Part shown: positions 28,841-53,000 of the stretch, one piece after another
How the letters are laid out: each line of letters starts with the position of its first letter
Position numbering within the stretch: position 1 is the stretch's first letter
Virus record (IMG/VR): IMGVR_UViG_3300045922_000164
Location: 1 to 60,962 of that record
Strand: one strand, 5' to 3'
From: a virus
Lineage: Duplodnaviria > Caudoviricetes
Length of the DNA stretch: 60,962 nucleotides
The notes under the pieces: model-generated
Databases searched by the model: none
What the model was told of the DNA's origin: nothing
What the model saw: the letters and a program-made list of their open reading frames with translations, nothing else
Program-made: the position numbers and the translations under genes

Positions 28841-29137
28841 TCGGCTTGCCGCCACCAGAGTGCCCGCTGCCCCGGCGGACTGCACGATGACGGTGGCGGA
28901 ATACCGAGGGCTCACGCTTCGCAAGGAGACCTCCGGTCTCAACTTGCTCGCGTTCGCCTTCACGCGACCGTTTCTCTCGATTGGCTCCAGTGCGTAGCGC
29001 CCGACGCTCCGTCGGACCGCGCGATGACCGCACGGACAACATGCCGAAGTTTCTAGGCTTCTGCGCTTCGCTTCGCTGCCTTGGGGCGCTCCGCTCAGCT
29101 TGCGAAGCCTACAAACTTCACACGCAACGAGGCTCTC
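28841..29137 (+). ncRNA. Structured ncRNA upstream of RT (retron msr/msd-like candidate)
   Basis: Five stem-loops fill the gap, including a duplicated covarying 32-nt motif and a long terminal hairpin at 29046-29119. Confidence 0.75.
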
Positions 29138-30244
29138 ATGCTGTATTACATCGACACAAACTCCTTCTATCCTGGTCTGATTCGACCTGCCTACACGATC
29201 AAAACGATCAGGAATGGGGGGAAGGAGCGCAAGCTCTACATCTCGTCCGACATTGTGAGCAGGAAAAACCTGCGCGTTATGGCAGCCAGATTGGCGAAGC
29301 ACATCGACGAACGCAGGTACATGCACGACCACGGCTTCCGCGGTGGCCGCTCTCCGGTGACGTGCGCTGCTTCACTGAGGGGCAGGAGGTACTACCTGTC
29401 CGCCGACCTCCAGGACTGTTTCCCCTCCACGACTCGTGAGATGGTGAGGCGCGGCCTGAACTTGGCCGGTGCGTCGATAGACGACGACCTGCTGGAGATC
29501 ATCACGCCAGATGGCGCTCCACAGCAAGGCATCCCGACGAGCCCGATCCTTGTGGCGATCGCCCTCAAGGCTCTCGACATGGAGATCGTGAAGCGGTGGC
29601 CTGGGGTGCTCTACTCGCGGTATGCGGACGACCTGAACTTCGCGACAGACTCGCTTGAGGTGGCGCGCGAGATCAGGCGCGAGCTTCCTGGGATCGCCGA
29701 CCGTCTCGGGTGGAAAGTGAACCCGAGGAAGTGGCAGATGACCGACTCGAAGGTGTGCCGGCCGGTCATCTGTGGCGTCGTGCTTGACGGGAATAGAACG
29801 CGCCCGACGCGCGAGTTCCGCAAGGTGCTTCGCGCAGCCGAGCATGCAGGATCAGACTCCTACCGCACGAGAGGATTGCACGGGTGGACCGCTACCGCAG
29901 TCCGTGAACTTCCTCCACACGGCCGTCCTGTGCGCGCTGATAATAGGGGGTGGGACATCACTTACCGAGGGGTGAGTCTGAAGGCTGTACTCATCAAGGG
30001 TGACTGGTACTACGAGGCGCCATCCGGACCACGCTCACCGCTGACGCTTGCCAAGCACCCAAGGATTCTGATCCCCTCTCTGTATCGGGCGTTCCACTTC
30101 GACGGTGGGTTCATGCTCGACAGGATAGACAGGGTGTGGAGGCTGTGGTCGCACAACAACGTGATAGAGAAATGGGAATCGCGACCGAAGTGGGATTACG
30201 TAAAGTCGTTGATTGCAATCAGGAAGCTAGAGAGGGAACTGTGA
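29138..30244 (+). CDS. Retron-like reverse transcriptase fused to an unknown C-terminal domain (368 aa)
   Basis: HGFRGGRS, ADLQDCFPS, PQQGIPTSP, YSRYADDL, VNPRK, VICGV; GAGG RBS before ATG 29138. Confidence 0.9.
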   Translation: MLYYIDTNSFYPGLIRPAYTIKTIRNGGKERKLYISSDIVSRKNLRVMAARLAKHIDERRYMHDHGFRGGRSPVTCAASLRGRRYYLSADLQDCFPSTTREMVRRGLNLAGASIDDDLLEIITPDGAPQQGIPTSPILVAIALKALDMEIVKRWPGVLYSRYADDLNFATDSLEVAREIRRELPGIADRLGWKVNPRKWQMTDSKVCRPVICGVVLDGNRTRPTREFRKVLRAAEHAGSDSYRTRGLHGWTATAVRELPPHGRPVRADNRGWDITYRGVSLKAVLIKGDWYYEAPSGPRSPLTLAKHPRILIPSLYRAFHFDGGFMLDRIDRVWRLWSHNNVIEKWESRPKWDYVKSLIAIRKLEREL

Positions 30245-34391: not shown

Positions 34392-34736
34392 TCACTTTGG
34401 TGGGAGTCCGAGGAAGCGGCGCACCACAGCACGCAACCACTCTGCAAGCTCCTCACCGTTGATGACATCGATCACCGACATCAGCTTCATCATCAGCGCA
34501 ACCCCGAAGCTGCCGACGAGAAATCCGACAGCCCCAGACATCTTCGGCTTGCCAAGCCAATCGACCAACGGCTCGGTGAGGAATGCGGCCATCAGTGCGC
34601 CGCAGACAAACGTCGTGAAAACTACGATAGCAGGCTTCCTGCTGGCGATCGCGGCCGCGGCAGCAACCAGAGCGCCAGCGATGCCTGAGGCTACAGCCTT
34701 CCAGGTTGCCGAAAGCCACCCGTGAAAATCGTCCAC
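34392..34736 (-). CDS. Holin-like membrane protein
   Basis: Multiple TM segments directly after the endolysin. Confidence 0.7.
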   Translation of the reverse strand: MDDFHGWLSATWKAVASGIAGALVAAAAAIASRKPAIVVFTTFVCGALMAAFLTEPLVDWLGKPKMSGAVGFLVGSFGVALMMKLMSVIDVINGEELAEWLRAVVRRFLGLPPK

Positions 34737-34745
34737 TCCCTTCTC

Positions 34746-35390
34746 CTACGCTTGCAATGCACGAGAAAACAGGGCCAGACGGTTTTCGATGTCCATCCTG
34801 GACCCAGTGATACGCCTGACCAGAAGGCGGAAGCTGATCGCCAGCAGGTCGTTGCCGCCGATCTTGTCCCAGAACCAGCCGGCTGAGTCTGCCGCGTACC
34901 GTGGCTCAGACAGCATGTCGGGCCTCTCGGTTGCAGGCACCCCTGTGGCGGCCTCGTAGGCCGCGTAGTTCGATTTCCCGGTCAGTTGGAACAATCCCCT
35001 TCCCCGGTACTTCCAGCCGTCTCCTGAGCCCTGTGGGCCGTTCCCAAGCCTATTCGCGTACACGAGGTCGGCAAGCTCCATCGGACGGTTGACGTAGAGC
35101 AGCGGGTTCCTCTTCCCATCTGGCAGCGGGTCCATCAGGGTCTCCCCCTCCGACGGCATCCGGAAGATCGAGAACACCTCCACCAGCCTCTCCGGAGTTC
35201 GGTAACTGAGGTTCTCCTCGGTACGGGTGAACATCCAGCTCTCCCTGGCCGCGTTCGCCACGAATGCGGCCACCTGCTCCTCGGTGACGATCCCCCACTT
35301 GAAGCACGCCTCATCGATGTGTGGGGCGAACCGCTCCGCATCCTGGAGCCTGCACCCTGTCGCAGAAACCAGCCACCGAGCGTCGATCAT
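34746..35390 (-). CDS. Endolysin, glycoside hydrolase family 19
   Basis: RES...EENLSY, YANRLGNG, DGWKYRGRGLFQLTGKSNY; likely start MIDAR at 35390. Confidence 0.9.
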   Translation of the reverse strand: MIDARWLVSATGCRLQDAERFAPHIDEACFKWGIVTEEQVAAFVANAARESWMFTRTEENLSYRTPERLVEVFSIFRMPSEGETLMDPLPDGKRNPLLYVNRPMELADLVYANRLGNGPQGSGDGWKYRGRGLFQLTGKSNYAAYEAATGVPATERPDMLSEPRYAADSAGWFWDKIGGNDLLAISFRLLVRRITGSRMDIENRLALFSRALQA

Positions 35391-35408
35391 TCCCACATCG
35401 TAGCACGC

Positions 35409-35437
35409 TTGACATGGGACAGAAAGCGTGAGAATAT
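35409..35437 (+). promoter_or_regulatory. Promoter candidate firing into the intergenic structured region
   Basis: TTGACA-N17-GAATAT, overlapped by inverted repeat CACGCTT/AAGCGTG; divergent TG-C-TACGAT -10 for the endolysin. Confidence 0.5.
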
Positions 35438-35442
35438 TCGCC

Positions 35443-35850
35443 CGCCTCCGAGACCCACCCGGGGTTTTCAGGAGTGCTGCCCAGCCGCGACACCTCGCGC
35501 CCTGTCGCGATCCTGCATCTGACCAATGCCTTGGGGCGGCACCCCTGAGTACCCTCGGTGGGCCGGGGGCAGGTCCTGACTCGTCGGTCGAGATGACGGC
35601 GGGAGTCAGGATACAACGGGGAACCGTGGGGCAGGGCTGAAACATCCCCATGCGATGGCGAAGGCAGCGTCGCAAGCCCGAAAAGGCTGCCGGGTGAAGT
35701 GCCTTGGCTCCATACGGCAGTGAGCCTGGCCTCTGAAGGAAACCCTGCGCTACAGGGCTAGAGGCTGGGCTCGTCCTTTCACCACCAGCAGTGGATGGGA
35801 GGACGCTGCATCGTAGCGTTGTGACGACATCTCCACAACGCGAGATATCC
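35443..35850 (+). ncRNA. Large highly structured ncRNA candidate (~410 nt)
   Basis: Nested long helices with G-U pairs in + sense, GGAA tetraloop, possible terminal pseudoknot. Confidence 0.65.
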
Positions 35851-35880
35851 CGAAAACCTAACCCCAAAAAAACGCCAAGT

Positions 35881-35976
35881 GGGGGGAAGGGTGAGGGGAA
35901 GTAGGGAAAGGGGGTGCGGGGGAAAGGGAGAAGGGGAGAGGGGAGGGTGCCCGAAAATGTTAGTGGCACTAACATT
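35881..35976 (+). other. Purine-rich tract of ten G-runs followed by a perfect 21-bp palindrome
   Basis: G3-G6 runs at 35881-35947; AATGTTAGTG-G-CACTAACATT at 35956-35976. Confidence 0.8.
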
Positions 35977-35978
35977 CC

Positions 35979-36269
35979 CTAGAGGTTGCGTTTCTCGCAT
36001 AGCATCCTTGTCTCCTCGACCGCCCTCCTGAAAGCTCTCATCACGTCCGCCCTGCTCAGGTGCGGAACCCTCCTTCTCCAGTCGAGAACATCGTGGCAGG
36101 CGGCGCAAGCGAACGCGCCCCAGTTGTCGTCCGCCTTGATCCCCATCCCCTTGCCGTGCTTCAGTTGATTCGAGTGCGCTAGCACGGTCGTCTCAGTGCC
36201 ACCGAGACAGACGCCCGGCAGCCTCATCGTGCAGGGCATCCCTCTGGCGGCCTCACGTATTTTCGTCAT
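35979..36269 (-). CDS. DUF1364-like zinc-binding nuclease-family protein
   Basis: C..RLPGVC....ETTVLAH...GMGIKADD...ACAACHD. Confidence 0.8.
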   Translation of the reverse strand: MTKIREAARGMPCTMRLPGVCLGGTETTVLAHSNQLKHGKGMGIKADDNWGAFACAACHDVLDWRRRVPHLSRADVMRAFRRAVEETRMLCEKRNL

Positions 36270-36750
36270 GCTGGATGAGCGCCGAGTACGGGATCCTGAT
36301 GTCGCGATGGAAGGCTTCCTTCGCGCTCTCCACGTGGTCGATGTCTGCCCGCGATGAGACTCCCAGGTGGATCCGCATCATCTCAGCAACAACCTCCTCG
36401 TCCGTCGGCTTCACGTCGTCACGAAGAAGGTTCAGGAGGGCGCGCTCGCGAAGGTGACTGAATCTGGCGAAGAACCACGTCCTGAAGTGCTCTGTGGCGC
36501 ACCAGCGTCCTGCAAGCACCGACAGAGGACCGCCCTTTCTTTCCTGCGCGACCGGCATCTCGTCGTCGCCGATCTCCACCATCACGCACGCAAGACGCTG
36601 ACCGGCGACCTTGCCGTGCTTCACCGTCATCCGCTTGAACACCTCAAGCTGCTCCGGATCGGAAAGCAGCAGCGTGATCTGCGCTCCACCGCTGTGGGTT
36701 TCCCTCCAGCCGAGCAGCATCACCTCACCCTGAAACGCCACGTTTTCCAT
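36253..36750 (-). CDS. Hypothetical protein
   Basis: Coupled to dnaB. Confidence 0.7.
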   Translation of the reverse strand: MENVAFQGEVMLLGWRETHSGGAQITLLLSDPEQLEVFKRMTVKHGKVAGQRLACVMVEIGDDEMPVAQERKGGPLSVLAGRWCATEHFRTWFFARFSHLRERALLNLLRDDVKPTDEEVVAEMMRIHLGVSSRADIDHVESAKEAFHRDIRIPYSALIQHDENT

Positions 36751-38054
36751 CAGAACGAACTCCTCTTCGGTTTCACGTTGATCGGCAGCTTCTCGCTCTC
36801 CTCGAACCTGGAGAACTCAGGAGAAAACTTCAGCGGGATCTCTCCGACCGGACCGTTCCTGTGCTTCCTCACGAGAACCTCAGCGTACCCCTTGAGAGAG
36901 TGGTCGTCAGGCATGTACACCTCCGGCCTGTGGATGAACATCACCACGTCCGCGTCCTGCTCGATCTCTCCGGAATCTCTGAGGTCAGAAAGCATCGGCC
37001 GCTTGTCTGGCCTCTTCTCCGGATCCCGGTTCAACTGGGCCAGGAGAAGCACCGGGGCGTCGAGTTCGCGAGCGAGAGCCTTCATCGCCCTGGAGATCGA
37101 GCCGACTTCCTGCGCCCTCGTCTCACCTGTGCCTCCAGACATGAGGCCCAAGTAGTCGACCACCACAAGATCCAGCCCGTGCTTCCTCTTGTGTCTGACG
37201 CACTTCACCCTGATGTCGGCGGCAGACTGCGCTGGCGTGTCGTCGACCCACAGGTTCATCTTCTCGATCGAGGCGACAGCGTCAACAAACCTGCGCCACC
37301 CGTCGTCCGCCATCTGGGACGGATACTGCATCAGGTGGCTGTAGATCCTGCCCTCTGAAGCGATCGCCCTCTCGATCAGTTCGTGCGCACCCATCTCCAT
37401 CGAGAACACGAGAACGCTCCCCCATCTGGCCACGTTTGACGCGATCGCCATCGCGAGGGATGTTTTCCCCATCGAAGGTCGGCCTGCAAGCACCACCAGG
37501 TTCTGCTTCCTGAGTCCGCCCGCCAGGGCGCGATCGATGAGTCCCGTCCTCACCCTGTCGGTTACCCCATCCTTCCTGCGCTGGATCTCGGTCGCGACAG
37601 CGGTCACGATCTCTCTCACGGAAACTGGACCGCCTGCGTGCGTTGACACGACAAGCTCCGAAATCCTGTCGTGCAGTCTTCCGAGAATCTCTGTCGCGCT
37701 CCCGGCGGATTCGGTCGCTTCCCTGAATGCGGCCGCCGCCTTCCTGAGCAGCGATCTGTCTCTGACGGTTTCCGCGTACCTCGCGATCAGAGAAGACCCA
37801 GGGACGGATGACGCAAGCTCGTTGAGCTTCGCGAGAAGATCGCGATCTTGATTCCCAAGCGAGCGCGCCCTCTCGAAGACGGTGATGATGTCGACCTTCT
37901 CTCCATCAAGGATCATCCGCCTGATGGTCGAGAAGATGAACCTGTATTCGGCGACGAAGAAGTCGTCGTCGTTCAGGCTGATGAGATCGAACGACTGTGG
38001 GTCGTTCAGAAGACACCCGAGTACCGCTGCCTCAGACTCAGGCGACTCACGCAT
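36750..38054 (-). CDS. dnaB: Replicative DNA helicase
   Basis: AGRPSMGKT, VDYLGL, AQLNR, LSDLRDSGEIEQDAD, RNGP. Confidence 0.95.
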   Translation of the reverse strand: MRESPESEAAVLGCLLNDPQSFDLISLNDDDFFVAEYRFIFSTIRRMILDGEKVDIITVFERARSLGNQDRDLLAKLNELASSVPGSSLIARYAETVRDRSLLRKAAAAFREATESAGSATEILGRLHDRISELVVSTHAGGPVSVREIVTAVATEIQRRKDGVTDRVRTGLIDRALAGGLRKQNLVVLAGRPSMGKTSLAMAIASNVARWGSVLVFSMEMGAHELIERAIASEGRIYSHLMQYPSQMADDGWRRFVDAVASIEKMNLWVDDTPAQSAADIRVKCVRHKRKHGLDLVVVDYLGLMSGGTGETRAQEVGSISRAMKALARELDAPVLLLAQLNRDPEKRPDKRPMLSDLRDSGEIEQDADVVMFIHRPEVYMPDDHSLKGYAEVLVRKHRNGPVGEIPLKFSPEFSRFEESEKLPINVKPKRSSF

Positions 38055-38913
38055 TGTCAGGATCCATGTCAGCGAGCCTGCCCCTCTCAGTCAGCCGGAC
38101 AGTCCCCTCTTCATCGAAATGCCACAGCCGGAACCAGTTCTCCTTGATGGTCCGCAGGAATACCGCTCTCCAGTCGATGTACTTCTTCCTGCGGTGCGGC
38201 TCACCGTAGAGGTAGCGGTTCCTGAAGTAGCGCGCGTGGAGGTTGATCATGTCCTCCGTCAGCCCGATCGATGCAGCGAACTGATACAGGGGCGGCCACC
38301 CTCTGTAGAACGGCTCCCCCCTTCGTTCGAGTTCTTCCATGTACTCGGCGAACGTACACATCGCCCCGGTGCCCCTGCCCAGATTTTTGTTGGGCACCTC
38401 CTCCATCAGGGCAAGCTGCTCGACGATGTTGAGTCGCCCGGAAAGCTCGTGCTCTATCACTGCATCGACATACCGTGGTGCCGTCTTCTTGTTCTTGCCG
38501 ATCCCCTGCTGGCGCTTCTCTCTCCACCTCCTCACTGCCTGCCTGAGCGCCTCCCTCTTCTCGTCAGAGACGTGCGCTGACGTGTAATCGAACGACCTGT
38601 GGACCATGATTTCGTAGTGCATCTCGGACCGCTGGAAGAGATACCTCCCTCCTGCTGGGCCGTTCGGGTTCTCGTAGTCCTCCTGGCACAGGACCTTCAG
38701 AGCGTGCCTGACATCGTACTCGTCTGTGCCGACGATGGCAGCGATCTTGGTGGGATCCATCTCCACCATGACCCTGCTTTCTTCGTCAGGGCGCGCGTGC
38801 GCTATCGCGTACATCCAGACGGCGAACACGGTAGGCCCCTGCCCCAGAAGTGGGCCGCTGAAAATCGCAGGCTGAACGATGGCAATCCATTCATGGTAGG
38901 CGGGTGAACTCAT
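38047..38913 (-). CDS. Putative replication initiator protein
   Basis: Upstream of dnaB; initiator-like layout (N-terminal wHTH, RQAVRRWRE linker, KYIDWRAVF..W C-terminus). Confidence 0.6.
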   Translation of the reverse strand: MSSPAYHEWIAIVQPAIFSGPLLGQGPTVFAVWMYAIAHARPDEESRVMVEMDPTKIAAIVGTDEYDVRHALKVLCQEDYENPNGPAGGRYLFQRSEMHYEIMVHRSFDYTSAHVSDEKREALRQAVRRWREKRQQGIGKNKKTAPRYVDAVIEHELSGRLNIVEQLALMEEVPNKNLGRGTGAMCTFAEYMEELERRGEPFYRGWPPLYQFAASIGLTEDMINLHARYFRNRYLYGEPHRRKKYIDWRAVFLRTIKENWFRLWHFDEEGTVRLTERGRLADMDPDNA

Positions 38914-39151
38914 AGTTGCATGATCTGCATCGGATCTTTTGCGGAATGAGCCTTTGGTCGAATGGCTCTTTCGTGTTGGCGAGGATGATGTAGGTGCCGA
39001 CGGTTGCCGCGATCTTCGGATGCGGCACCCCGATCGGGACCATCGAGATGTGGCCGCACTTCGTGCAGCCGAATGGCACAAGCTCGAACTCGTCAGGCTT
39101 CTCAGGCCACTCAAGCACCTGCCATGTCTTGTATTCGCCTGGTGACGGCAT
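38891..39151 (-). CDS. Small zinc-ribbon protein
   Basis: CTKC and CRSC pairs. Confidence 0.55.
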   Translation of the reverse strand: MPSPGEYKTWQVLEWPEKPDEFELVPFGCTKCGHISMVPIGVPHPKIAATVGTYIILANTKEPFDQRLIPQKIRCRSCNYEFTRLP

Positions 39152-39154
39152 AGA

Positions 39155-39180
39155 CAAAATCGGGGGCCGAAGCCCCCGTA
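39155..39180 (-). terminator. Intrinsic terminator
   Basis: CGGGGGC-TTCG-GCCCCCG then ATTTT on the minus strand. Confidence 0.7.
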
Positions 39181-39196
39181 GATGTGTTGTCAGGTG

Positions 39197-39412
39197 TCAG
39201 ACCTCGGCGTGAGCGCTCTTCCTCCCGCGAGGGCGCGCCTCCACATCCTCGATCTCGACGCCGCTGCGAGCCAGCTCGTAGATTTCCTCCGGCTTCGCAA
39301 CCTCAGCCACGATCGAGGTGCGGGCTGCGTGACTGACCGCAGCCTGCTGATTGTAGGCCCGGACGAGCCGGGGACCGTCGGAAGTCAGAACCTTGTAGAT
39401 CCTCAAGTTCAT
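39197..39412 (-). CDS. Small hypothetical protein
   Basis: RLVRA..QQAAV.H pattern; GAGGTG RBS. Confidence 0.7.
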   Translation of the reverse strand: MNLRIYKVLTSDGPRLVRAYNQQAAVSHAARTSIVAEVAKPEEIYELARSGVEIEDVEARPRGRKSAHAEV

Positions 39413-43773: not shown

Positions 43774-44054
43774 AGAACTACCTCGTTGACGAGGAGAGAG
43801 AGCGCCGGCTCAGGGCACAGGTCGAGTCTGCCCTGCGCCGGATCCCTCCTGAAGTCGTCAACGGCGGAGTGATGAGGGCGCAAGCCTACAAGCGGTGGGC
43901 TGAGGAAGCCATCAGGATCCTGAAGAACCCGAAATCTGTGCCTGGGCAGTTCGAGTCGCTCATGTTCCACCTGAACTACCTGTGCAGCGACGAGTTCATG
44001 GTCGCACCTTCTCGGCCGTCTTCTTCGCCTCCTCCCGAAGACGATCAACCCTGA
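43767..44054 (+). CDS. Hypothetical protein
   Basis: ORF track; overlaps the 3' end of the giant gene. Confidence 0.55.
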   Translation: MVKNYLVDEERERRLRAQVESALRRIPPEVVNGGVMRAQAYKRWAEEAIRILKNPKSVPGQFESLMFHLNYLCSDEFMVAPSRPSSSPPPEDDQP

Positions 44055-47000
44055 CCTGCACCCTGCGGTCGAACTCCTCCTGCGTGATCCCACGGCGGGC
44101 AAGCTGCCGGGCGAGACCACGGATCTCCTCCTCCGTGCGCTCTTTGTAAGCCTTGAACTCCTGCACAGCCCTGAGCCTCATCTCGTCAGGCGGGTAGGAC
44201 TTGATCTTCACCCCGACGGATGACGCGAGAGCCTGACCAAGGCTCACTTCTCGCCCGAACGGGTCGAGCTTGCCTCTCAACGCAGACTCGATGGCCGTCC
44301 AGCTCCACGTCTGGAAATGGCCGGTCTCCGCCATCGGGATGACGTACCCCGGTCCGGGAAGAGGCAGGTTCGGCATCATCGCTTTGAAGAACCAGTCGCC
44401 GAACTTGATCGCCCGCTCAAGAGGGGTGTCGTTCTCGTCGATGATGGGCTTCCCTGTGAACTGGGACTTGTTGACGAAGAACTCCGCCATCAGGGACAGG
44501 GGGCCGCCAACGGAGAGCCAGTCAGGAACCGGGATGATTGCCTGGCTGGATTGCACGTCGAAGACGCTCCCACCTGGGACCCAACGGCGCACGTCGAGGA
44601 ATACCGGGGAGCCGTGCCGGTCGTTCCATGGCAGCCTGATCATCCTCGGGAAGATGCCGAAGACCCGACCGGAAAGCTCTTCCGGCATCAGCCTGCGCTC
44701 GCGCTCCTCGTCGCCGTCCGCACCAAGCAGGGAGTACGCGAGCGAGTTGAGGACGCTGGCGATCGTCCAGTATTTGGCGATCTTCCACGGCTTCTTGAAT
44801 GCCGTCTCGATCATCAGCGGGATCGCCCGGTAGCTGAACGCGATGAACGGGAGCCCGGTCCTACGGGCGGCCTGAACCCAGGGAGCGTTGATGTCGTAGT
44901 TCAGGAACGCATCACGTGCGGCCTTCCCGGCTTCGATGTCGCTCTTGCCGGCGTCGATCTCGCGCATGAACTTCGCCAGACGGAAGACCGAATCCTCCTG
45001 CTGGTAGAGGGAAACGAGAGTGTCGAACGGAAGTCTTCCTCTGCTCAAGAGAGACTTCGTGGCGTCCATGTTGCCCTTGAGCGACATCCAGACAAGCTGC
45101 ATGACCGATATCTTGCTGATGTCGGACTCGTTCAGGCTGCCCTCGATCTGCTTCAGGATCGGGCTGATGAACTCCTCGTTGATATCTGCGGCCACGAAGC
45201 TGCCGTACTCCGCTCCGCTGTCCTCGTAGCGGTTCATCAGGGCGACAGCCTGCGGGTCTCCCTTCTTCGCCTTGATGATGACGTTGAGCGCACCGATGAT
45301 GTCCCTCACGCGAACGTCGGCAACGTCCGCCATGATGAAGTTGGACATCACGTTGTTCATGTGGACCGACGGGCTGAGTGCGGTCTTGCTCTTCTTCCAG
45401 AACCTCAGCGTGCTGTCCCACAACTGGGAGAGCTCGCCCTCCGGGACAGCCATCGCGGTCCGGATGTCGTTCCAGATGACGCCGGGGAGAGCGCGACCAG
45501 CCAGAGCGCCATACTTGTGGATCTTCGTCCCCTGCACGTAGGTGCTTGGCACGATGACCCACTCGTCCCTGCCGTAGGTCTTGGTCGTGACGAATCCCTC
45601 TGAGGCCGGGACGATGTTGTCGACCTCCTTCGGATCCTTCGCGTACTCCCTGTTCACCCACGCCAGGAACCTTGCTGTCTCCACGTCGCGGACGGCAGCG
45701 ATGACCGTCTTCGCGAACGCGTACTTGACTTCCTCGATCTCTCCCAGTCGCTCCCGCTCCTCCTTCGTGAGGTCGCGCCACATGCCGACCTGGTTGTTCT
45801 TGTCGAAGAAGCGGGCCTCCCAGATCCCCTCGGCCTGATGCCCAGGCGGGTGGACACCAGCTTGCGCGGCCTGGAGCGGGACGTACTCGACGCTCCTGAG
45901 CCTGCCAGCTTCATCTCTGCGCTCGAACCGGACGAACAGGTCGCCCTTGTTCACCTCGTCGGTGTACTTGATCAGGGCATCATCCTTCACGTCGTCCCTG
46001 AGTCCGCGACCCCTGAAGTTCTCGGCGCGGATCGCGGCAGACCGCTTGAAGGACTTCATGAGCGTGCTGCCTTTGTCCATCAGGTGGCGAGCGTAAGTCC
46101 TGTGCAGGTACGCCATCAGGTTGCGGTTGTAGCTCTCCTCCGAGAGAAGACCCAGAGCGACAGCCTCCCGCCCAAGCTCATCCACGAGCTCCTTCATCTT
46201 GAGCAGGTGTTGCCGGCTGTCCTCAGGCAACCTGGCCATGAGACGCCTTTCAAGCTCGGTGTCAGGCTTCTCGGACATCCACAGGTACGCGATCCTGCTT
46301 TCCTCCTTCGTGAGGTTGGCAAGGTGGTCGAGGAGATTCTTCGACTCCCTGAGCCTGCGGTTGATGTGCGCCCGCTTCACGATCTTCGCGTCAAGGTAGG
46401 GCTCAGGCAGACCGTAGTCAGCGATCAGGCCGTGCGCCGCCTTCTCAAGAAGCGGGTGCTTAACTGTCTCCATCCGGCCTACGGCATGCAGCTTGTCCCA
46501 GATCGGAGACGTGATGTGCTTGGCCAGAAGCTCGAAGCCAGCCTTCTTGAAGACGAGATCGATGAGGCCGGAGTGTCCCTCGGTCGTCATCTGGGGGGCG
46601 ACCGAGTAGAACGGCTTCGGGGCCAGGTTCAGGGTGCTCTCGCGGATGAGCTTCGTGACAGCGTTCGTCCTCTCATTCTCGTCCTCGATGTTCACCGCGT
46701 CAGCCAGCTTCCCGGCCTGATCGAGCCTCAGGAGAGCCTCCGTGATCGCGACCCTTGAGATCGTCCTGTTGCCTGCGGCGACGATGTACGGGTTGACACT
46801 GGTGGTCGGCTCCGCCCTCTGTGTCTCCCCCTCCACCTTGACCCTGGCCAAAGCCTCATCGAACGCCGGCTCGTTGTAGAGGGACATCACGTCCCTGAGC
46901 CAGATCGCCATCGAGCCGACGGTGTGTTCTACGTTGTCACGGTAGATCCTGAGTCCGGCGTCATACTGGTTGGCATGCAGGCCGACGTGGTCCGTTTTCC

Positions 47001-50000
47001 CCTCGCGCAAGATCGAGTTCAGGGTGGCCTCAGCCCTCCTGATGAGAGCCCTGTCGCTCAGGCCGAACGGGTCGCCGACGAACCTCCTGTTCGTCGCCGC
47101 CGCCCACTTCATGATTGCCTGATAGATCAACGCCCCATCGGTCACGTTCTGCGTGAGGCCGATCATGTTGGCGACAGCAGTCTTGTCGTCGAAGTAGACG
47201 GTGGCTTGCGCAGTCCTCGGGATGCTGTCAGGCGGCTCACCGCGCTCAGCGGACAGCTTTCTGATCTGCTCGTCTGTGAGCTTGACCTCGATGTCCCACT
47301 TGCTGTGGGGCTGGAACGACGCGACGCCATTGAGGCTGAGGGTTGGTGACGCCTCCTGGTACGCGAACATCTCTCTGGCTGCCCGCAGAACAGGCGACTT
47401 CGTTGCTGTGATTTTTCCTCCAGACGCCTGCGTGAGGATCTTGTTCAGGTCTGAAGACTTGACGATCTTGTAGTCGAACAGCTTCCTGTTCTTCGCGAAC
47501 GCAAGGAGAGCAGCGCCAACACGAGCCTCCGTGGCTGCGCTCCGTTTGTCTCTCAGCTTCTTCGTGTCCTTGTAGACCCCAGGAACAATGTCCCCGGGGT
47601 ACTCGACGATGATGTTCGAGATGTCGCCCTCGTCGAGTCCGTCACCGTAGTCAGGCTGCTCTCCGAAGATCTCGGTCTCGATCCACTGGTCCTCCCCGGA
47701 TGTGGAGAAGAGTGGCACTGTGCGCGACATGAACTTCTGCATCATGTCGTCCGTGATGTCGAACCCCAATTGGGTTGACTCTTCGCCGTCGTAGTACGTG
47801 AAGACCTGTTTTACTCGATCTCCACCGAGCTTCTTCAGCACATCTTCGGCAACCATCGGGACGATCTTGTCGTAGAACTCAAGCATCCCTGTTCCGCCGA
47901 ATGATTCATCGACTTGAATATCTACGGCGTCGTTTTTCTTCTTTGCTTCATCTAGGGCAGAGAGAATTTTTTTGGTAAGCTCTTTGCCGAACAACTCATG
48001 CACGCCAAGTTTTTTTGCAACGTATGCAGAAGGTCCGTGCGTAACCATAAACATTGTGTTGTTGTTTTCAAGAACTCCCGATAGAACTGTGTAATGTTTT
48101 TGTGATAACCAAACGAGTCCAGTCTGAGTCACCCTGATTTTGTCAACAGCCTTCCTGAGATTATATCTATAAGCCTGCTGTGTGCCGGTTGTCCATGCAA
48201 CCTTGCGCGCTCCGCGCACGATTGCCTGATTGATCGCTGACTTGAGCGCCAAAGAAACCCAAGACTTGGTTTCTTGGATAAATGGCCCAGAAGGCGTGTA
48301 CTGGTACGACTTGAGGCGACCTAGCTCTTGCCTTGTCTTTTCTATCTCAGATTGAAGGAGTTCACTGTCGTCTTTAGATGATCTCGCAATCAGATCATCA
48401 AGCTCTTTCTTAAGCCTGAAATACGACTGCCCCTTCCTGTAGTCTTGTGCCCAGTCGCTCTGAATTTCCTGTATGAAGAATACAGGCTGACCGTCCTGAC
48501 CCTTCCTTATGTCATAACGCAAATGGAAGATTCTGTTTTTCTCGATGCCACCGAACATCCTGTGTGTAATTAGCACTTTGTAATTGATTTCTCCTGTGGC
48601 TGGTTCCCCAGCGTCGAGCGCAAGAATGCCGGCTTCAGATATACGATCCTTGGACAGTTCGTAGTCTGTGTATTGTATGAATGGGACGCTCTCAATAGAT
48701 TCGAACTCTTTGTAGTCAGCAGCGCTCTTTGCTATTTGAGTAGCCTCATTCACGGCTCGCTCAATAAGACCCTCACGTGGCCAGTAATCACTCAGATTGT
48801 ACTCGGTTATCTTCCTGTTTGTTCCCCAAACAAATACCTTGTCTTTCTTCACTACTACATACCCGGCTCCTGCCGGACCATACGCAACGAAAGCGTTCTT
48901 TGACACCCATCCGGCTCGTCTACCTGTATAGATCGCCTGCCTTTCTTTGATGTACTCTGCGCCCTCGATTGCACTAAGCACATCTTCCTTCGTGAGCTTT
49001 TTCTTCTTTTCTTTTGCGAGCTCGATGACCTCCCTGACTCCGGTCCACGCGATCTCGTCCTCTTTCACCCCCTTGTTCTTCAGGCCGTTGATGATGTTCT
49101 CCCACTGGTCTGCGGGTGCGGAGTTGACCTTCAGGTCCCTGACAGCCTTATGGAGTGGGCTGTAGGCCCACCAGGGGATGCTGGTGCTGAACTTGACCCG
49201 GCTCTGGACCGGGACTGAGGTGTGCTTGCGCCCGATCAGGACTGCCGCCCCCGAGCGCCCGAACTCGCGGGTGAGGTAGCCGTCGAAGCCGGCCTCGATG
49301 ACCGCCCTCTCGAAAGCGTTCCTGTCCTTGCTGACGAGGTTCAGCGGGTCGGCGTCAGCGTCATAGAGGTTGCGCAGCCTGACGGTATGCTCTTGGCTGC
49401 CGACGACAGACTCAGGGTGGATCCCTGAGCCGGTGTCGAAGTAGAAGTAGATCCGGTGGCTTAGCTCTGGGTCTGACTTGACCCGCTCCCACTCGTCTCC
49501 CCTGTGGTTGCGTCCGTAGTAGGCTCCGTTGAGGAACTGCCTCCGCTCGCCGGAGAAGTGGTGGCCGACGACTTCGACGGAGTGCTCTCGCGGCTCCCCG
49601 TAGACGGCTGAAGTTTCCTCTCCAGCGCTCGCCTCAGTTGCTCTTCCGCGCCCGCCATCGGGTCGCTCGAACTGGGCGACCCACCCTTCGAGCCTTTTCT
49701 GGGCGTACGCACGAAGGCGGTCGGCATCAGCACGCCTGCTCCCCCGAACACCTTCTCGTCCGGCCCCAGTTCCCTCCACGACCTGATTGCCATACCTCGT
49801 TCCCTCCAAGTAGGCTTCCGCGCTCCCTGGCTCGATCCAGTCGGAGCGGAAGCGTTTGACTCCGACATCGTACTCCTGATCCTCCGACGCGAGCGCGCTC
49901 CTGATGGCGCTCAGGAACGAGTCGTCGGAGGCGTTGGTGAAGTTCCCGATAATGAGGTGGCCGTCCTTCACCGAGTACCCAATCGGCGAGTTCACCGCGG

Positions 50001-53000
50001 ACGACACCCTGTCCACCATCCTCCCGAAGAGTTCCTCAGCCTCCGCAGGCGAGATGCCGCCGTCCTTCGTGATCGTGACGAACGAGGTGACACCATTACC
50101 CTCGGTGACGGACTCGTCGTACGCGATCATCGCCTTCTGATCGAAGATGTAGCCGAGAACCTTAGCCACCTCAACTGCATCATCAATCGACGACTTCGGC
50201 AGGTGGACGATGAAGTTCGGAGACGACTCGTTCATGAAGCCGCCGACGGAGTGCTCGATCCTGAACGGGATGCCCATGTCGTTCAGAACACGAGGCACGA
50301 TAGAGCGAGCCACCGACTCGCTGATGAGCTTCAGCGCGCGCTTCGGGAGAGCGGTCAGCCGCTCTTTGAGCTGTCCTTCTCCTGGGACGACTTCTGCGTA
50401 GACCCCCGTGTCCTCTCTTTGCTTCGGTGCAACAGAGTACGAATGAGATCCCAGTTCGGGTTCCAGTCCAGAATCGGGATATCCTTCTCCACGATCCTGT
50501 TCCTCTCTTCGAACAAGTCCTCTTTTCTCGGCATAACGTGTCACCTCCGTTCCGTAATCGGTGAGCAGCTTCCTGTCGGTCCTCGCACCGAGACGTTGGT
50601 AATAGATCTTCTCCGGGTACCAGAGAAGGGCTTGCAGGTCGGCGACCTCAAGGTCGTACCCGCGCTTGCGCATCCTCCCAAGGAGGTTGTTCATCACGCG
50701 TCGGATGAAGTCGCGCTGGGCCGCGCTACGTGGCGCGTCACGCAGGGGGCTTCTCTGCCCGAGTTCGTCCTCGAAGTCGACGACCTCCTTCTCCGGAAGC
50801 AGGATGTCGCCAGTCAGCCGACCGATGGTGCGCATCAACCACTGATCGATGGTCAGGAACTCGTACCTGCCCATCAAGTTCGGGAAGAATCCGGCCCCAA
50901 CCTTCGACCCGAAGATGACAGCAACAGGCAGCTCGGCGTCGACAAGCTCCTTGATGTTCTTCAGACCGAATGCCTGCTTCGTGATCGAGACGGGCTGGAC
51001 CTCCAACATTCTCTGGACGAACCCGTCCACCCCATAGTGCCTGATGATCGCGTTCGCGCGAGCGAACGAGTTCACCATCTGGCGAGCTCTGACGACAGGT
51101 TTCGCTCCCGGGTACATGACGATGTAGCTCTTGTCCTCGGGGAGCTTTCTGTTCTGCTCGTAGTACCCGTAGACCTCGAACGCTGTCCTCACGTTGTCGG
51201 ACACGCTCAGTCCTGGAGACGTGATCGCCAGGATGAACGCGAACATCGCCCGCCCATCAGGTGTGCCGATGCTCGGGTAGACCTTCGCCGCCATCTGCAT
51301 GGCGGTCTCAAGGTTCTTCCGGTACCAGTCGATCGCGTTGTCCGGGTCGTCCATCGCGTGGATGGCCTCAGCCTCCAGGATCTCCGCGATGAAGTTCACC
51401 GCCTCATCATCGAAGCTCTTCAGAGGACCGCCGAAGGTCTTCCTGTAGTTCTCTTCGAGGAACCTGCCGATGGCTTTGAGACCGGTCTTCTCGTCGTCTG
51501 AGTTCGTGACCCTGACGTTCTGCTTGAGATCTTGGTCTCCGTAGACGACATCGATGAGCGAGACCGCACGCTGTTTGTCGGTGAGCTTCGGTGGGGCGAC
51601 GCTGTATGCGGCAGCCCTCCTTCTGGTGTCAGCGATGTCTTGCGGCGAGATTGTCAGCGTCTCCCTGCCGCTCTCGGTTTGAACGGAAACCGTCCTACTA
51701 TTCTTCCCGCCTCCCTTGAGCATTCCGCGAAGACGCTCGACTTCCTTCTTCGGGATAAAGAGCAGTCTTCCGTTGTACGCCTCATCAAGGACGTGAGCTG
51801 CGCTCGCGTGCTTGCCGTAGAGGGTCGCGACCTGAATGACCTTGTTGACTGGGCCGTCGCCATTCCTGAGGTTGCCCTTCTCAAGAACGGCAAGCAGTGG
51901 GTGACCTTCTGGAGAGATGGCCGGCAGGATGACGCTTACCCTCTTCGCCTCATTGAAGTTCTTCACCGGGACGCCATTCTCATTCCTTGGGTCCAGGATG
52001 GCCCTGGGCTGCATCGCGAGAAGTTCTGGCAGGGCACCGATGATGTTCGAGTCGATGCCTTCTGTGCCATGACGCTCGCGGATGTGTTCCACCGTGCCGC
52101 GATGAAGGGTTACCGGCGCGTTCGTGGAGACGCCGGCAAATCCGTATTCCCTTGGTAGCGACCGCGCAATCGTCACCTCGGGGAAGCGCTCTTGAACATC
52201 TCCTACGTTTTCAACCCAGTTCTTTAGCAATGTGGAGTATTTGGTGCCCTCAGCAGGCTTTCTGACCTCTCCGGTCGATCTTCCGGAGATAGCCCTGATG
52301 AGACCGAACGCTTCAGCGTCAGAGATATCGCTGACATCGCGACCGGTGACGCGCTTGATGTAGTGCTTGACCCTGTTGGCGAACCGCTTGATCGCTGCGA
52401 TGATGCCGGGCTTGAATTGGTCTGGAACCTCCAGACCGTACCGCATCCGGATGGCGTCCGTCCTCCCTGTGCGGATCGCAGCCTCAAGCTCTGCTCCAGC
52501 CTCCTCGATGGCTTGCGTCATCGCGACTGCGGCTCTCGCGTCGCCGGCAGCCCTCTCCTCCATGATCCTCGTCGCGAGGTCTCGGATGAACCTGTTGCGT
52601 CCGAGTTCGGCGATGTCGGCCTTGTAGCCCTCGCTCTCCCTGACAGCCTTCCCGCGATGGAAGAGTTCGTGCCACGCCACCCAGGCGGCGCGCTCTTCCG
52701 CCGTCATCAGGACTTTTCCAGTCCTCGAAACGACCGGTCGGATCCGGTCAGCGAAGATGGTCAGGGTGTCTGTGGCGTCGTCGTACTGGGCCTCAACACC
52801 TTCCGGCACGGAGGAGAAGAGGCGGCCCTGCTGGTCAACCTGGTCGGCGCGCGCAACCTTGATCCTCTTGGCGCGCTCTGCGCCCACTCCTCTCGCCACG
52901 ACTCTGGCGACAGCGCGAGACAGGAGGCCGCCCTCCTCCTCGAACATCCTGATCTGCTTCTCAAGGTCGGCCTTCTCCAGTTTGGCGGCCTGTACTGCCT

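What the first reader, a model, noticed from the sequence alone, without database searches (positions are those of the whole stretch)
35409..35850. Orphan ~410-nt highly structured RNA with its own promoter, opposite to flanking genes
Seen after TTGACA (35409): nested helices GCCTCCG/CGGGGGC (35444/35564), CCCACC/GGTGGG, TCAGG/CCTGA, GTGCTGCCC/GGGCGGCAC and CGCGACA/TGTCGCG. These are followed by TCCTGACTC/GAGTCAGGA, ACGG-GGAA-CCGT, a 14-bp GAGCCTGGCCTCTG/TAGAGGCTGGGCTC inside GGTGAAG/TTTCACC, and GCGTTGTG/CACAACGC whose loop (ATCTC) can pair with downstream GAGAT. G-U wobbles work only in + sense. I do not recognise tRNA, tmRNA, RNase P or intron signatures. Inference: an undescribed large phage ncRNA; possible roles are a replication pre-primer, a protein sponge or a second RT substrate.
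Basis: partly seen in the sequence, partly recalled or inferred. Interest (0 to 1): 0.8.

Follow-up and report, generated by a model that had tools for sequence, protein, structure and literature searches.

The report
Known phage RNA motif, larger than catalogued
The structured RNA is real and reads on the + strand, but its middle third is a catalogued motif of unknown function (Rfam Betaproteobacteria-1), which turns out to be a larger, single-copy RNA that phages keep beside their DNA-replication genes.

Summary
The observation mostly holds. A sigma-70-like promoter (35409-35438, +) is followed by a highly structured stretch, opposite to both flanking genes (endolysin 34746-35393 and YbcO nuclease 35979-36269, both -). 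It is not an orphan. Positions 35573-35695 (+) match Rfam RF02932 (Betaproteobacteria-1 RNA) at 84 bits against a cut-off of 49.4.

In more than 150 distinct copies from phage contigs, metagenomes and mostly betaproteobacterial genomes, I found features the 120-nt Rfam model does not hold:
- three co-varying tertiary pairings inside the core;
- a conserved ~95-nt 3' domain (window 35691-35804);
- a ~25-nt imperfect direct repeat in that domain whose variable part changes in step between phages;
- an AT/TA-rich, C-poor tail after it.

The RNA is single-copy per phage and sits in the replication and early module. The window's 5' hairpin domain (35444-35570) and its last hairpins were found only in the window and one 98%-identical contig.

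Function is not shown. My best reading, at about 35%, is an origin-associated or primer transcript. Rivals are a cis-acting leader, a protein-binding RNA and an antisense role. The reverse-transcriptase-substrate idea fails: 0 of 30 other carriers encode an RT.

The parts
35409..35438 (+). sigma-70-like promoter (TTGACA, 18 nt, AATATT); the predicted start is about 35444-35447
   Evidence: 10 of 12 matches, the only site in 1.8 kb, 0.2 expected. The sequence is identical in L294.
35444..35570 (+). 5' domain: a long irregular hairpin with a two-hairpin tip. Found only in the window and L294/L002.
   Evidence: -76.3 kcal/mol, z -5.56; the one substitution against L294 (35567 G>A) turns a U-G pair into U-A in the outer helix. 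Found by none of my pattern searches in other lineages. Other lineages carry different long hairpins at this place (L290; the L306 type).
35573..35695 (+). Core = Rfam RF02932 Betaproteobacteria-1.
- P1: 35573-35582 with 35603-35612.
- P2: 35618-35622 with 35645-35649.
- Junction UGGCGAAG: 35656-35663.
- P3: 35663-35668 with 35686-35691.
- Tail CGGGU: 35691-35695.
- Tertiary pairing PKc: 35596-35599 with 35624-35627.
- Tertiary pairing PKb: 35634-35638 with 35675-35679.
- Tertiary pairing PKa: 35652-35655 with 35670-35673.
   Evidence: 84 bits against a cut-off of 49.4, E 5e-14, model positions 1-120. The tertiary pairings come from mutual information and pair counts on 81 sequences: PKa 96.9%, PKb 87.7% and PKc 97.5% of cells paired, with changes on both sides in 4 of 4, 5 of 5 and 3 of 4 pairs.
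35691..35804 (+). Conserved 3' domain that is not in the Rfam model.
- P4: 35700-35703 with 35716-35719.
- Repeat copy 1: GGCUCC + X, 35706-35722, in the P4 loop.
- UGAAGG: 35734-35739.
- P5-equivalent long helix: 35722-35734 with 35760-35772, with an inner hairpin at 35743-35757.
- Repeat copy 2: UCACC + X', 35779-35794.
   Evidence: Model R1 was built from 80 homologues without the window. It gives one hit in the whole window, here: 18.8 bits, E about 0.004. It gives 36 hits in 43 independent loci. P4 is 92.4% paired in A1 and 89.8% in A6, with 5 of 5 pairs covarying in each. The direct repeat is tested.
35773..35846 (+). 3' hairpins found only in the window and L294: about 35773-35805, 35805-35819, and 35816-35841 followed by GAGAU
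   Evidence: One search gives the fold; three substitutions against L294 (35799, 35803, 35808) keep the pairs through G-U/A-U exchange, and one more (35811) lies in a loop. Not seen in other homologues.
35857..35949 (+). An A-rich stretch, then a 69-nt G/A tract (35881-35949) with many G runs on the RNA-sense strand. Whether it is transcribed with the RNA is unknown.
   Evidence: One search gives the sequence; the 180-nt stretch 35796-35975, which holds the tract, has 11 GGG+ runs against 3 CCC+ runs; this excess is equalled by one, and exceeded by none, of the 676 windows of the genome. This is not a family feature: only 3 of 58 GC-rich loci are in their own top 5%.
35956..35976 (.). A perfect 10-nt inverted repeat abutting the stop codon of the YbcO gene
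   Evidence: read directly. Not followed up.

Best explanation
What it is (about 97% sure): a promoter-driven, + strand, non-coding RNA that is a divergent member of Rfam family RF02932.

The family unit is not the 120-nt motif. It is an RNA of about 215 nt, made of:
- three hairpins knitted together by three long-range pairings;
- a 3' domain of two helices, P4 and P5;
- a ~25-nt imperfect direct repeat in that domain. One copy sits in the P4 hairpin loop and the other about 50 nt further on. Its variable part (X/X') differs between phages but matches within each phage;
- an AT/TA-rich, C-poor stretch that follows.

This phage adds its own 5' hairpin domain, extra 3' hairpins and a G-run tract.

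How it most likely works (about 35%, inferred, none of it shown): it is an origin-associated transcript.
1. Host RNA polymerase starts at 35409-35438.
2. The knotted core folds and presents loop X.
3. X has the same sequence as the non-template strand at X', so it can pair with the template strand there while the polymerase passes.
4. That helps the nascent RNA stay hybridised in the easily melted or C-poor stretch downstream.
5. The hybrid opens the duplex, or is trimmed to a primer, for the phage replication proteins encoded next door.
For: Identity:
- Rfam hit of 84 bits on the + strand only.
- 16 of 16 sampled pattern-derived loci and 30 of 30 virus records exceed the Rfam cut-off.

Structure (81 sequences under 93% identical):
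- 87.0% of cells are paired, against 62.8% in shuffles.
- The covariation score is 0.61, against 0.19 in shuffles and 0.09-0.11 with slid partners.
- The 3' domain is confirmed by a model built without the window.

Direct repeat:
- 49 distinct X/X' pairs share 7.73 of 9 positions, against 5.76 for swapped partners (highest of 200 shuffles 6.08).
- Over the whole unit, 147 pairs share 21.6 identical positions, against 18.7 (highest of 30 shuffles 18.99).
- The base after CGGGU equals the base after AGGU in 89% of sequences.

For the origin reading:
- There is one copy per phage record. 28 of 30 records have one hit. The 2 double hits lie at contig ends or 35.2 kb apart with identical score.
- It sits among replication genes. 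The upstream neighbour is a DNA primase in 17 of 97 distinct proteins and a Cro-like repressor in 24 of 97. The downstream neighbour is a replication-initiation or primosomal protein in 9 of 90, plus helicases.
- In the one locus of the L281-L301 group that I annotated (L283), the order is promoter, RNA, HNH, primase/helicase.
- In the window, DnaB lies about 0.8 kb away.
- Its position is flexible: own promoter, intergenic, followed by a clean terminator (L241, L253), or antisense to its neighbours as here. So it does not serve one downstream gene.
- The 60 nt after X' are more AT-rich than other ORF-free windows of the same loci (0.66 against 0.55, median percentile 0.96). They are also C-poor (0.14 against 0.22, percentile 0.00) and TA-rich (percentile 0.98).
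- No iteron array that would mark a classical origin lies in 35300-39300.

Precedent: ColE1 RNA II opens an origin through a persistent RNA-DNA hybrid that depends on the RNA's fold (PMC5043065, passages of section 10).
Against: - No transcript, hybrid or origin activity has been measured. No RNA run was available.
- AT-rich, C-poor sequence after the RNA could simply be a 5' UTR or promoter region for the next gene.
- G-run enrichment downstream, the clearest R-loop signature in the window, is not a family trait (3 of 58 loci).
- The mismatch pattern between X and X' did not show the asymmetry expected if RNA X pairs with template DNA at X'. G/A mismatches outnumber A/G by 99 to 25, but U/C against C/U is 4 to 17.
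- In 64 of the 89 copies with both neighbours called, the RNA is co-oriented with both, and 84 of 96 downstream genes are on its strand. That also fits a cis-acting leader.
- The GC-skew profile follows gene orientation and says nothing about an origin.
- A primed origin with a conserved, pseudoknotted RNA is not, to my knowledge, described for dsDNA phages.
Confidence: 0.35

Rival explanations
1. It is a cis-acting leader or elongation-control element, such as a processive antiterminator, a Rho-resistant insulator or a riboswitch-like switch. It is transcribed with the early or replication operon and sets how much polymerase or ribosome traffic reaches the genes behind it. The two repeat copies would give alternative pairings.
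For: - It is co-oriented with both neighbours in 64 of 89 copies, and the downstream gene is on the same strand in 84 of 96.
- 24 of 97 upstream neighbours are Cro-like repressors. That is the place where lambdoid phages keep their antitermination sites (recalled).
- Several lineages have a promoter ending about 7 nt before P1, or a long hairpin with a U tract just before the core.
- No terminator-like site follows within 170 nt in 147 of 163 copies.
- The C-poor tail would resist Rho.
- The identity of the base after CGGGU and the base after AGGU allows an alternative helix with the 5' strand of P5: 70.5% paired against 62.9% in shuffles, and mean run 4.67 against 4.33.
Against: - In the window no co-directional gene follows. 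The only + strand ORF after it (35791-35904) is frame-shifted by the 2-nt indel in L294.
- Downstream genes are very diverse (49 clusters among 83), and the distance to them ranges from -28 to +586 nt.
- Some copies are followed by a clean terminator.
- There is one copy per genome, not one per early operon.
- The alternative pairing of the P4 5' strand with the distal copy is no better than chance: 4.24 against 4.33.
- The support for the alternative helix is weak.
Confidence: 0.25
2. It is a self-contained, trans-acting RNA that binds a host or phage protein, as a sponge, scaffold or RNP component. A dimeric or repeated protein would read the two repeat copies, and its specificity would differ between phages.
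For: - The compact core with three tertiary pairings and invariant junction bases resembles protein- or ligand-binding folds.
- It stands alone with its own promoter and against the neighbouring genes in the window.
- It is a discrete unit with a terminator in L241 and L253.
- No complement of X lies within 1.2 kb in 49 loci or anywhere in the window above chance. So the repeat is more likely read by a protein than by an RNA.
Against: - Most copies have no terminator of their own.
- No partner protein is consistently encoded next to it.
- Nothing was tested about binding.
Confidence: 0.2
3. This one is specific to this phage. The rightward RNA acts as an antisense or collision barrier between the leftward replication genes and the lysis genes. 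It would time lysis by interfering with read-through from YbcO into the endolysin gene.
For: - The RNA gene fills the 585-nt gap through which any leftward transcript must pass to reach the endolysin.
- No - strand promoter-like site lies in 34600-36400.
- The - strand copy of the G/A tract is C-rich and G-poor. That is the composition Rho prefers (recalled).
Against: - In most homologues the RNA is co-directional with its neighbours, so this cannot be the family's function.
- It would not explain the conserved fold.
- It is untested.
Confidence: 0.1
4. It is a self-processing ribozyme that cuts the polycistronic transcript.
For: It has a pseudoknotted core with invariant junction nucleotides, and it sits in intergenic positions within phage operons.
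Against: It matches no known ribozyme family in Rfam, even at E up to 10. No cleavage site can be inferred.
Confidence: 0.05
5. It is a template or primer for the phage's reverse transcriptase.
For: The window encodes an RT at 29255-29743.
Against: 0 of 30 other RNA-bearing virus records have an RVT_1 match, including 0 of 13 that are at least 90% complete. The RT lies 6 kb away.
Confidence: 0.02

Closest known systems
Rfam RF02932, Betaproteobacteria-1 RNA (Weinberg et al. 2017 survey, PMC5737381)
   Same: It is a full-length match on the + strand with the same three hairpins, the UGGCGAAG junction and the CGGGU tail. Genome hits are mostly Burkholderiales and other Betaproteobacteria.
   Different: - The window copy scores at the low end of the family (84 bits; sampled relatives give 56-110).
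- It has one extra A before the 3' strand of P3.
- It has a rearranged P5, with UGAAGG inside the long helix.
- It has a 127-nt 5' domain and extra 3' hairpins.
- It lies against its neighbours.
- The Rfam model lacks the 3' domain, the tertiary pairings and the direct repeat. Whether the original supplement drew any of them I could not see.
ColE1 RNA II (plasmid origin primer transcript)
   Same: It is a promoter-driven, folded, non-coding transcript whose structure decides whether a persistent RNA-DNA hybrid forms and replication starts (PMC5043065). From recall, not checked in a call: an upstream RNA segment pairs with downstream template DNA, which requires a direct repeat in the DNA.
   Different: - There is no sequence or model similarity.
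- No antisense-RNA promoter was found.
- The host is a phage that encodes its own helicase and, in relatives, its own primase.
- Nothing has been shown experimentally.
HK022 put RNAs and other processive antitermination RNAs
   Same: They are cis-acting folded RNAs in phage early operons. From recall, one lies just after cro, as in 24 of 97 copies of this family.
   Different: This RNA is single-copy, about three times larger, and pseudoknotted. In the window it is not followed by genes on its strand.
P4 CI RNA and P1/P7 c4 RNA immunity systems (recalled)
   Same: They are phage RNAs flanked by short direct repeats that co-vary between related phages.
   Different: In those systems the repeats are complementary to a loop of the RNA. 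Here no complement of X was found within 1.2 kb or in the window.
Rfam RF03052, RAGATH-28
   Same: They share a hairpin followed by GAUGGCGAAG.
   Different: The match is 16.7 bits against a cut-off of 45.3, E 2.1. That is not significant, and I make no claim of kinship.

Membership tests
Rfam RF02932 Betaproteobacteria-1 RNA | Covariance-model score at or above the curated gathering score | tested here: met
   84 bits against 49.4, E 5.2e-14, + strand, model positions 1-120.
Rfam RF02932 Betaproteobacteria-1 RNA | Three hairpins with the conserved junction UGGCGAAG and the 3' tail CGGGU | tested here: met
   cmscan alignment. Both strings are invariant in the 81-sequence alignment A1.
Rfam RF02932 Betaproteobacteria-1 RNA | Tertiary pairings PKa, PKb and PKc (defined here, not part of the Rfam model) | tested here: met
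   The window can form 4, 5 and 4 pairs at the homologous places, read. In the family they are 96.9%, 87.7% and 97.5% paired, with covariation.
Rfam RF02932 Betaproteobacteria-1 RNA | 3' domain (P4, UGAAGG, P5, repeat copies), defined here | tested here: met
   Model R1, built without the window, gives a single hit at 35691-35804: 18.8 bits, E about 0.004 with rough calibration. The match is weak because P5 is rearranged.
Rfam RF02932 Betaproteobacteria-1 RNA | Occurrence in Betaproteobacteria or their phages | not testable with these tools
   The window is an unnamed metagenomic virus record. About 29 of 41 genome hits carry betaproteobacterial names, by my own reading of the titles.
ColE1 RNA II-type origin primer | Sequence or structure homology to RNA II | tested here: not met
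   No Rfam match other than RF02932 at gathering, and none relevant at E up to 10. Any likeness is functional analogy only.
ColE1 RNA II-type origin primer | Persistent RNA-DNA hybrid, RNase H processing and origin activity | not testable with these tools
   This needs experiments. Only composition is available.
ColE1 RNA II-type origin primer | Antisense regulator RNA from the opposite strand | tested here: not met
   No - strand promoter-like site in 34600-36400. This was a consensus scan only.
Processive antitermination RNA (put-like) | Lies promoter-proximal and co-directional in the operon it acts on | tested here: not met
   In the window both neighbours are on the opposite strand. In the family, 64 of 89 copies are co-oriented with both neighbours.
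Processive antitermination RNA (put-like) | Binds and modifies the transcribing RNA polymerase | not testable with these tools
   None.
Riboswitch / cis-regulatory leader | An aptamer followed by an expression platform upstream of a regulated gene | tested here: inconclusive
   In the window no gene follows. The alternative-helix support is weak, and one alternative pairing was rejected.
Retron / DGR RNA (RT substrate) | Co-occurrence with a reverse transcriptase | tested here: not met
   The window has an RT, but 0 of 30 other carriers do.
Known self-cleaving ribozyme classes | Match to a ribozyme model | tested here: not met
   None. Cleavage itself is not testable here.

The most novel reading that the evidence does not exclude
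The family is a new kind of phage replication origin defined by an RNA. A knotted transcript presents a phage-specific 'address' loop (X) that pairs with the template strand at the identical downstream site (X'). That pairing seeds a persistent R-loop in the AT-rich or C-poor stretch, and replication starts there. The co-varying direct repeat would be the footprint of that RNA-DNA contact.
Probability: 0.2. Interest if true: 0.85.

Novelty: new variant of a known kind. Interest (0 to 1): 0.5.

Why it matters
RF02932 has sat in Rfam as a 120-nt 'sRNA' with no function. I found no paper that discusses it: a search for the name returned 3 unrelated papers, and a search for the accession returned none.

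It also carries a co-varying direct repeat, which ordinary RNA-structure constraints do not produce. That gives the family a concrete, testable hypothesis and clear mutational targets (X against X').

If the origin reading holds, it would give a sequence signature for finding origins in hundreds of uncultured phages and Burkholderiales prophages. If not, the repeat still points to a phage-specific recognition step worth finding.

Tried and rejected
- blastn of 35380-35980 against 50,697 phage records gave no match.
- Relatives of the endolysin: 1 of the first 20 loci scanned (of 40 found) carried the RNA, and that one is the near-identical L002. So the RNA does not travel with this endolysin.
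- A first, loose DNA pattern gave mostly chance hits: 1 of 47 records searched had the family, and 3 records were not held.
- Sequencing runs: no RNA holder was listed.
- A third copy or reverse complement of X: none placed consistently within 1.2 kb in 49 loci. In the window there were 17 near-matches against 19 expected.
- Alternative pairing of the P4 5' strand with the distal repeat copy was rejected: 4.24 against 4.33 for swapped partners.
- The alternative helix of CGGGU-N-C with the P5 5' strand is only weakly above controls.
- The mismatch-asymmetry test for RNA-DNA pairing was inconclusive.
- G-run enrichment as a family trait was rejected: 3 of 58 loci.
- GC skew follows gene orientation.
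- Iterons in the replication genes: only two-copy families were found.
- The 409-aa ORF on the - strand across the gap (34746-35975) is taken as spurious. Endolysin relatives align from residues 1-8 of the 215-aa form, and the extension overlies the Rfam hit.
- The 37-aa + strand ORF (35791-35904) is broken by the indel in L294.
- RNAalifold on the 3' domain alone recovered only P4, because the 5' strand of P5 aligns poorly. P5 support therefore rests on the anchored test (6.18 against 4.93) and on A6 (69.2% paired).
- Rows dropped by eye as chance pattern hits inside coding sequence: L174, L287, L307, L311, L317.
Full report
**What is at the coordinates**

The window is a whole virus record of 60,962 bases, estimated 98% complete. 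The finding lies in a 585-nt gap between two genes on the - strand:
- a GH19-type endolysin at 34746-35393 (PHROG endolysin, E 1.4e-55);
- a YbcO/HNH-type nuclease at 35979-36269 (Pfam YbcO, E 2.6e-21).

A DnaB helicase lies further along the - strand, at 36750-38054.

On the + strand a consensus scan finds one sigma-70-like site: TTGACA, 18 nt, AATATT, at 35409-35438, with 10 of 12 matches. Shuffles of the 1.8-kb region give 0.2 +/- 0.5 such sites. No terminator-like site was found.

The stretch 35409-35850 folds far better than shuffles (z -4.66), but so does its complement (z -4.85). Energy therefore shows structure but not strand. The 5' third alone has z -5.56.

**It is not an orphan**

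A scan of the window against all 4,227 Rfam families gives exactly one match at gathering level. RF02932, Betaproteobacteria-1 RNA, matches 35573-35695 on the + strand at 84 bits against a cut-off of 49.4, E 5e-14, over model positions 1-120.

A permissive scan of 35300-36050 adds only two insignificant matches: RAGATH-28 at 16.7 bits and a mammalian lncRNA.

The family comes from the 224-motif survey, PMC5737381. I saw only passages of that paper. Its main text does not name this motif, and its supplements were closed.

A full-text search for the family name returned 3 papers. By title and start of abstract, none concerns the RNA. A search for the accession returned none.

**Collecting relatives**

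| Search | Result |
|---|---|
| blastn against phage records | nothing |
| Endolysin relatives | RNA in 1 of the first 20 loci scanned, the near-identical L002 |
| First loose DNA pattern | mostly chance: 1 of 47 records had the family |
| Variant pattern that fits the window, viral contigs | 21 hits |
| Combined pattern, bacterial genomes | 41 stretches |
| Narrower pattern, metagenome contigs | 13 stretches |

I dropped five hits by eye as chance matches inside coding sequence: L174, L287, L307, L311 and L317.

Rfam confirms the rest. 16 of 16 sampled loci score 56-110 bits, and 30 of 30 virus records exceed the cut-off. About 29 of the 41 genome titles name Burkholderiales, Rhodocyclales, Neisseriales or 'Betaproteobacteria'. 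That count is my own reading of the titles.

**The family is bigger and more knotted than the Rfam model**

I aligned 81 sequences that are under 93% identical (A1). On this alignment the structure P1-P5 plus three long-range pairings gives:
- 87.0% of 3,530 cells paired, against 62.8% in shuffles;
- 918 cells changed on both sides, against 302;
- a covariation score of 0.61, against 0.19 in shuffles and 0.09-0.11 with slid partners.

The three long-range pairings first appeared as top mutual-information pairs:

| Pairing | Partners | Cells paired | Pairs with changes on both sides |
|---|---|---|---|
| PKa | bases 5' of UGGCGAAG with the P3 loop | 96.9% | 4 of 4 |
| PKb | P2 loop with P3 loop | 87.7% | 5 of 5 |
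| PKc | P1 loop with P2 loop | 97.5% | 3 of 4 |

The window can form all three: 35652-35655 with 35670-35673, 35634-35638 with 35675-35679, and 35596-35599 with 35624-35627.

**A conserved 3' domain**

The RNA continues past the last Rfam position (CGGGU) with these elements, in order:
1. helix P4;
2. a loop that holds GGCUCC plus a variable stretch X;
3. UGAAGG;
4. hairpin P5;
5. YCACC plus a stretch X'.

P4 is 92.4% paired with 5 of 5 pairs covarying.

I built a covariance model of this domain from 80 homologues, leaving the window out. It finds one hit in the whole window, at 35691-35804 (+), with 18.8 bits and E about 0.004 under rough calibration. That hit abuts the Rfam match. In loci not used to build the model, it finds 36 hits in 43. 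On those hits P4 is 89.8% paired with 5 of 5 pairs covarying. P5 is 69.2% paired, because its register varies. An anchored test of P5 gives a mean run of 6.18 pairs, against 4.93 for swapped partners (highest of 200 shuffles 5.19).

In the window P5 is rearranged. The conserved GGCUGGG pairs with a strand that lies before UGAAGG rather than after it.

**The unexplained feature: a co-varying direct repeat**

X and X' are nearly the same within each phage but differ between phages.
- For 49 distinct pairs, the best 9-mer shares 7.73 positions, against 5.76 for swapped partners (highest of 200 shuffles 6.08).
- The likeness extends upstream to a ~25-nt unit, GGU-N-C...CC-X. For 147 pairs it covers 21.6 identical positions, against 18.7 (highest of 30 shuffles 18.99).
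- The base after CGGGU equals the base after AGGU in 89% of sequences.

In the window the two copies are 35706-35722 and 35779-35794.

RNA pairing normally produces complementary covariation, not identical covariation, so I tested several explanations:
- A shared complement was not found, either within 1.2 kb in 49 loci or in the window.
- Pairing of the P4 5' strand with the distal copy is no better than chance.
- An alternative helix of CGGGU-N-C with the P5 5' strand is only weakly above controls.
- The mismatch spectrum does not cleanly favour RNA X pairing with template DNA at X'.

The repeat is real. Its cause is open.

**Context across the family**

The RNA is present once per phage record. 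28 of 30 records have one hit. The two double hits lie at contig ends or 35.2 kb apart with identical score, which suggests assembly repeats.

Orientation among the 110 distinct copies:

| Strand of neighbours relative to the RNA (upstream, downstream) | Copies |
|---|---|
| same, same | 64 |
| opposite, same | 14 |
| same, opposite | 8 |
| opposite, opposite | 3 |
| one neighbour missing at a contig end | 21 |

The window belongs to the rare class with both neighbours opposite.

The neighbours are early and replication genes:
- Upstream, among 97 distinct proteins: 24 Cro-like repressors, 17 DNA primases, 6 PAPS-reductase-like proteins and 4 RusA-like resolvases.
- Downstream, among 90 distinct proteins: 9 replication-initiation or primosomal proteins, plus methyltransferases, ParB-like proteins and helicases. 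Otherwise they are very diverse, with 49 clusters among 83 proteins.

The RNA's place in the transcription unit varies between lineages:
- One lineage has a terminator, then a promoter ending about 7 nt before P1, then the RNA. In the one locus of this lineage that I annotated (L283), a small HNH protein and a primase/helicase follow.
- Others have a long hairpin between a promoter-like site and the core (L290; the L306 type). This parallels the window's 5' domain in position, not in sequence.
- A few copies end in a clean terminator about 50 nt after X' (L241, L253).
- Most do not: 16 of 163 have a terminator-like site within 170 nt.

The 60 nt after X' are unusually AT-rich, TA-rich and C-poor. 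This holds against all windows of each locus (median percentiles 0.97, 0.98 and 0.03). It also holds against ORF-free windows only (0.96, 0.98 and 0.00).

**Parts found only in the window**

The 5' domain (35444-35570) and the terminal hairpins (35773-35846) were found only in the window and its 98%-identical relative, L002/L294.

Across 591 aligned bases the two differ by 8 substitutions and one 2-nt indel:
- 5 substitutions fall in predicted helices: the outer helix of the 5' domain, P1, and three in the terminal hairpins. All are G-U/A-U exchanges that keep the pair only in the + sense.
- 2 fall in loops.
- 1 falls in the G tract.

That is modest support from a single comparison.

The G/A tract at 35881-35949 lies in the stretch 35796-35975, whose excess of G runs over C runs is equalled by one, and exceeded by none, of the 676 windows of the genome. 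It is not a family trait: only 3 of 58 GC-rich loci are in their own top 5%.

**Mechanism**

Nothing about function is shown. No RNA run was listed.

The reading I rank first, at about 35%, is an origin-associated or primer transcript. It accounts for:
- the single copy per genome;
- the replication-gene neighbourhood in four different architectures;
- the indifference to orientation and to the identity of the downstream gene;
- the easily melted or C-poor stretch right after X';
- possibly the direct repeat, since a loop identical to downstream non-template DNA can pair with the template strand there.

The precedent is ColE1 RNA II (PMC5043065, passages of section 10). The detail of an upstream RNA segment pairing with downstream template is recalled, not checked in a call.

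The weaknesses of this reading are given in full in the Against line.

The rivals are:
- a cis-acting leader or elongation-control element (25%);
- a trans-acting protein-binding RNA (20%);
- an antisense barrier role specific to this phage (10%);
- a ribozyme (5%);
- an RT substrate (2%). The window has an RT, but 0 of 30 other carriers do.

**Verdict**

The claim of a wholly undescribed RNA is wrong for the core. It is right in spirit for the larger architecture, which the catalogued model does not hold.

I rate it a new variant of a known kind, with interest 0.5.

Noticed in passing
L306:600-780 and relatives (L176, L190, L211, L244, L314, L318, L337): In the lineage where a Cro-like gene lies upstream, the ~170 nt before the core form their own conserved structure. 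A promoter-like TATACT is followed by a small element, and 7-8 nt of that element are complementary to a bulge in a ~100-nt hairpin that ends in a U tract. The two sides co-vary between phages. It looks like an attenuator or antisense-style control module placed in front of the RF02932 core.
   Followed up: partly
window 35881-35949: A 69-nt G/A tract with ten or more G runs on the + strand, which is C-rich and G-poor on the - strand. In the excess of G runs over C runs, the 180-nt stretch that holds it is equalled by one, and exceeded by none, of the 676 windows of the genome. It could be R-loop- or G-quadruplex-prone on the + strand, or a Rho loading site for leftward transcripts heading into the lysis genes.
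   Followed up: partly
window 34746-35975 (-): A 409-aa ORF runs without a stop codon from the G/A tract through the whole RNA into the endolysin gene. The first 194 residues are low-complexity and overlie the Rfam hit. Endolysin relatives align only from the internal start at 35393. An automatic gene caller could mis-annotate a long endolysin here.
   Followed up: partly
window 29081-30244 (+) and 43996-55785 (-): A reverse transcriptase gene (RVT_1, 57 bits), and a single ORF of 3,929 aa. I examined neither further.
   Followed up: no
many homologues, just 5' of UGAAGG (for example L184, L225, L239, L281): In GC-rich members the 3' strand of P4 often ends in AUG, GUG or UUG directly followed by the UGA of UGAAGG. 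That is a start-stop pair a few bases after the purine-rich X. In some members X' lies 4-8 nt before the start codon of the next gene, like a ribosome-binding site (L186, L236, L252). The pattern is not consistent across lineages.
   Followed up: no
L281-L301, L344-L355, about 60-160 nt upstream of the core: Two copies of GTTTAAAC bracket a short GC-rich segment. One of them lies in the loop of the upstream terminator. This recurs in nearly every member of that lineage.
   Followed up: no
window 35570-35664 (+): A weak, non-significant likeness to Rfam RAGATH-28 (16.7 bits, E 2.1), centred on a hairpin followed by GAUGGCGAAG. It may be chance or a distant relationship.
   Followed up: no
L289:1008-1100: One family member lacks repeat copy 1 altogether, because P4 has a 2-nt loop, yet it keeps copy 2. 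It is a natural test case for what the repeat is needed for.
   Followed up: no
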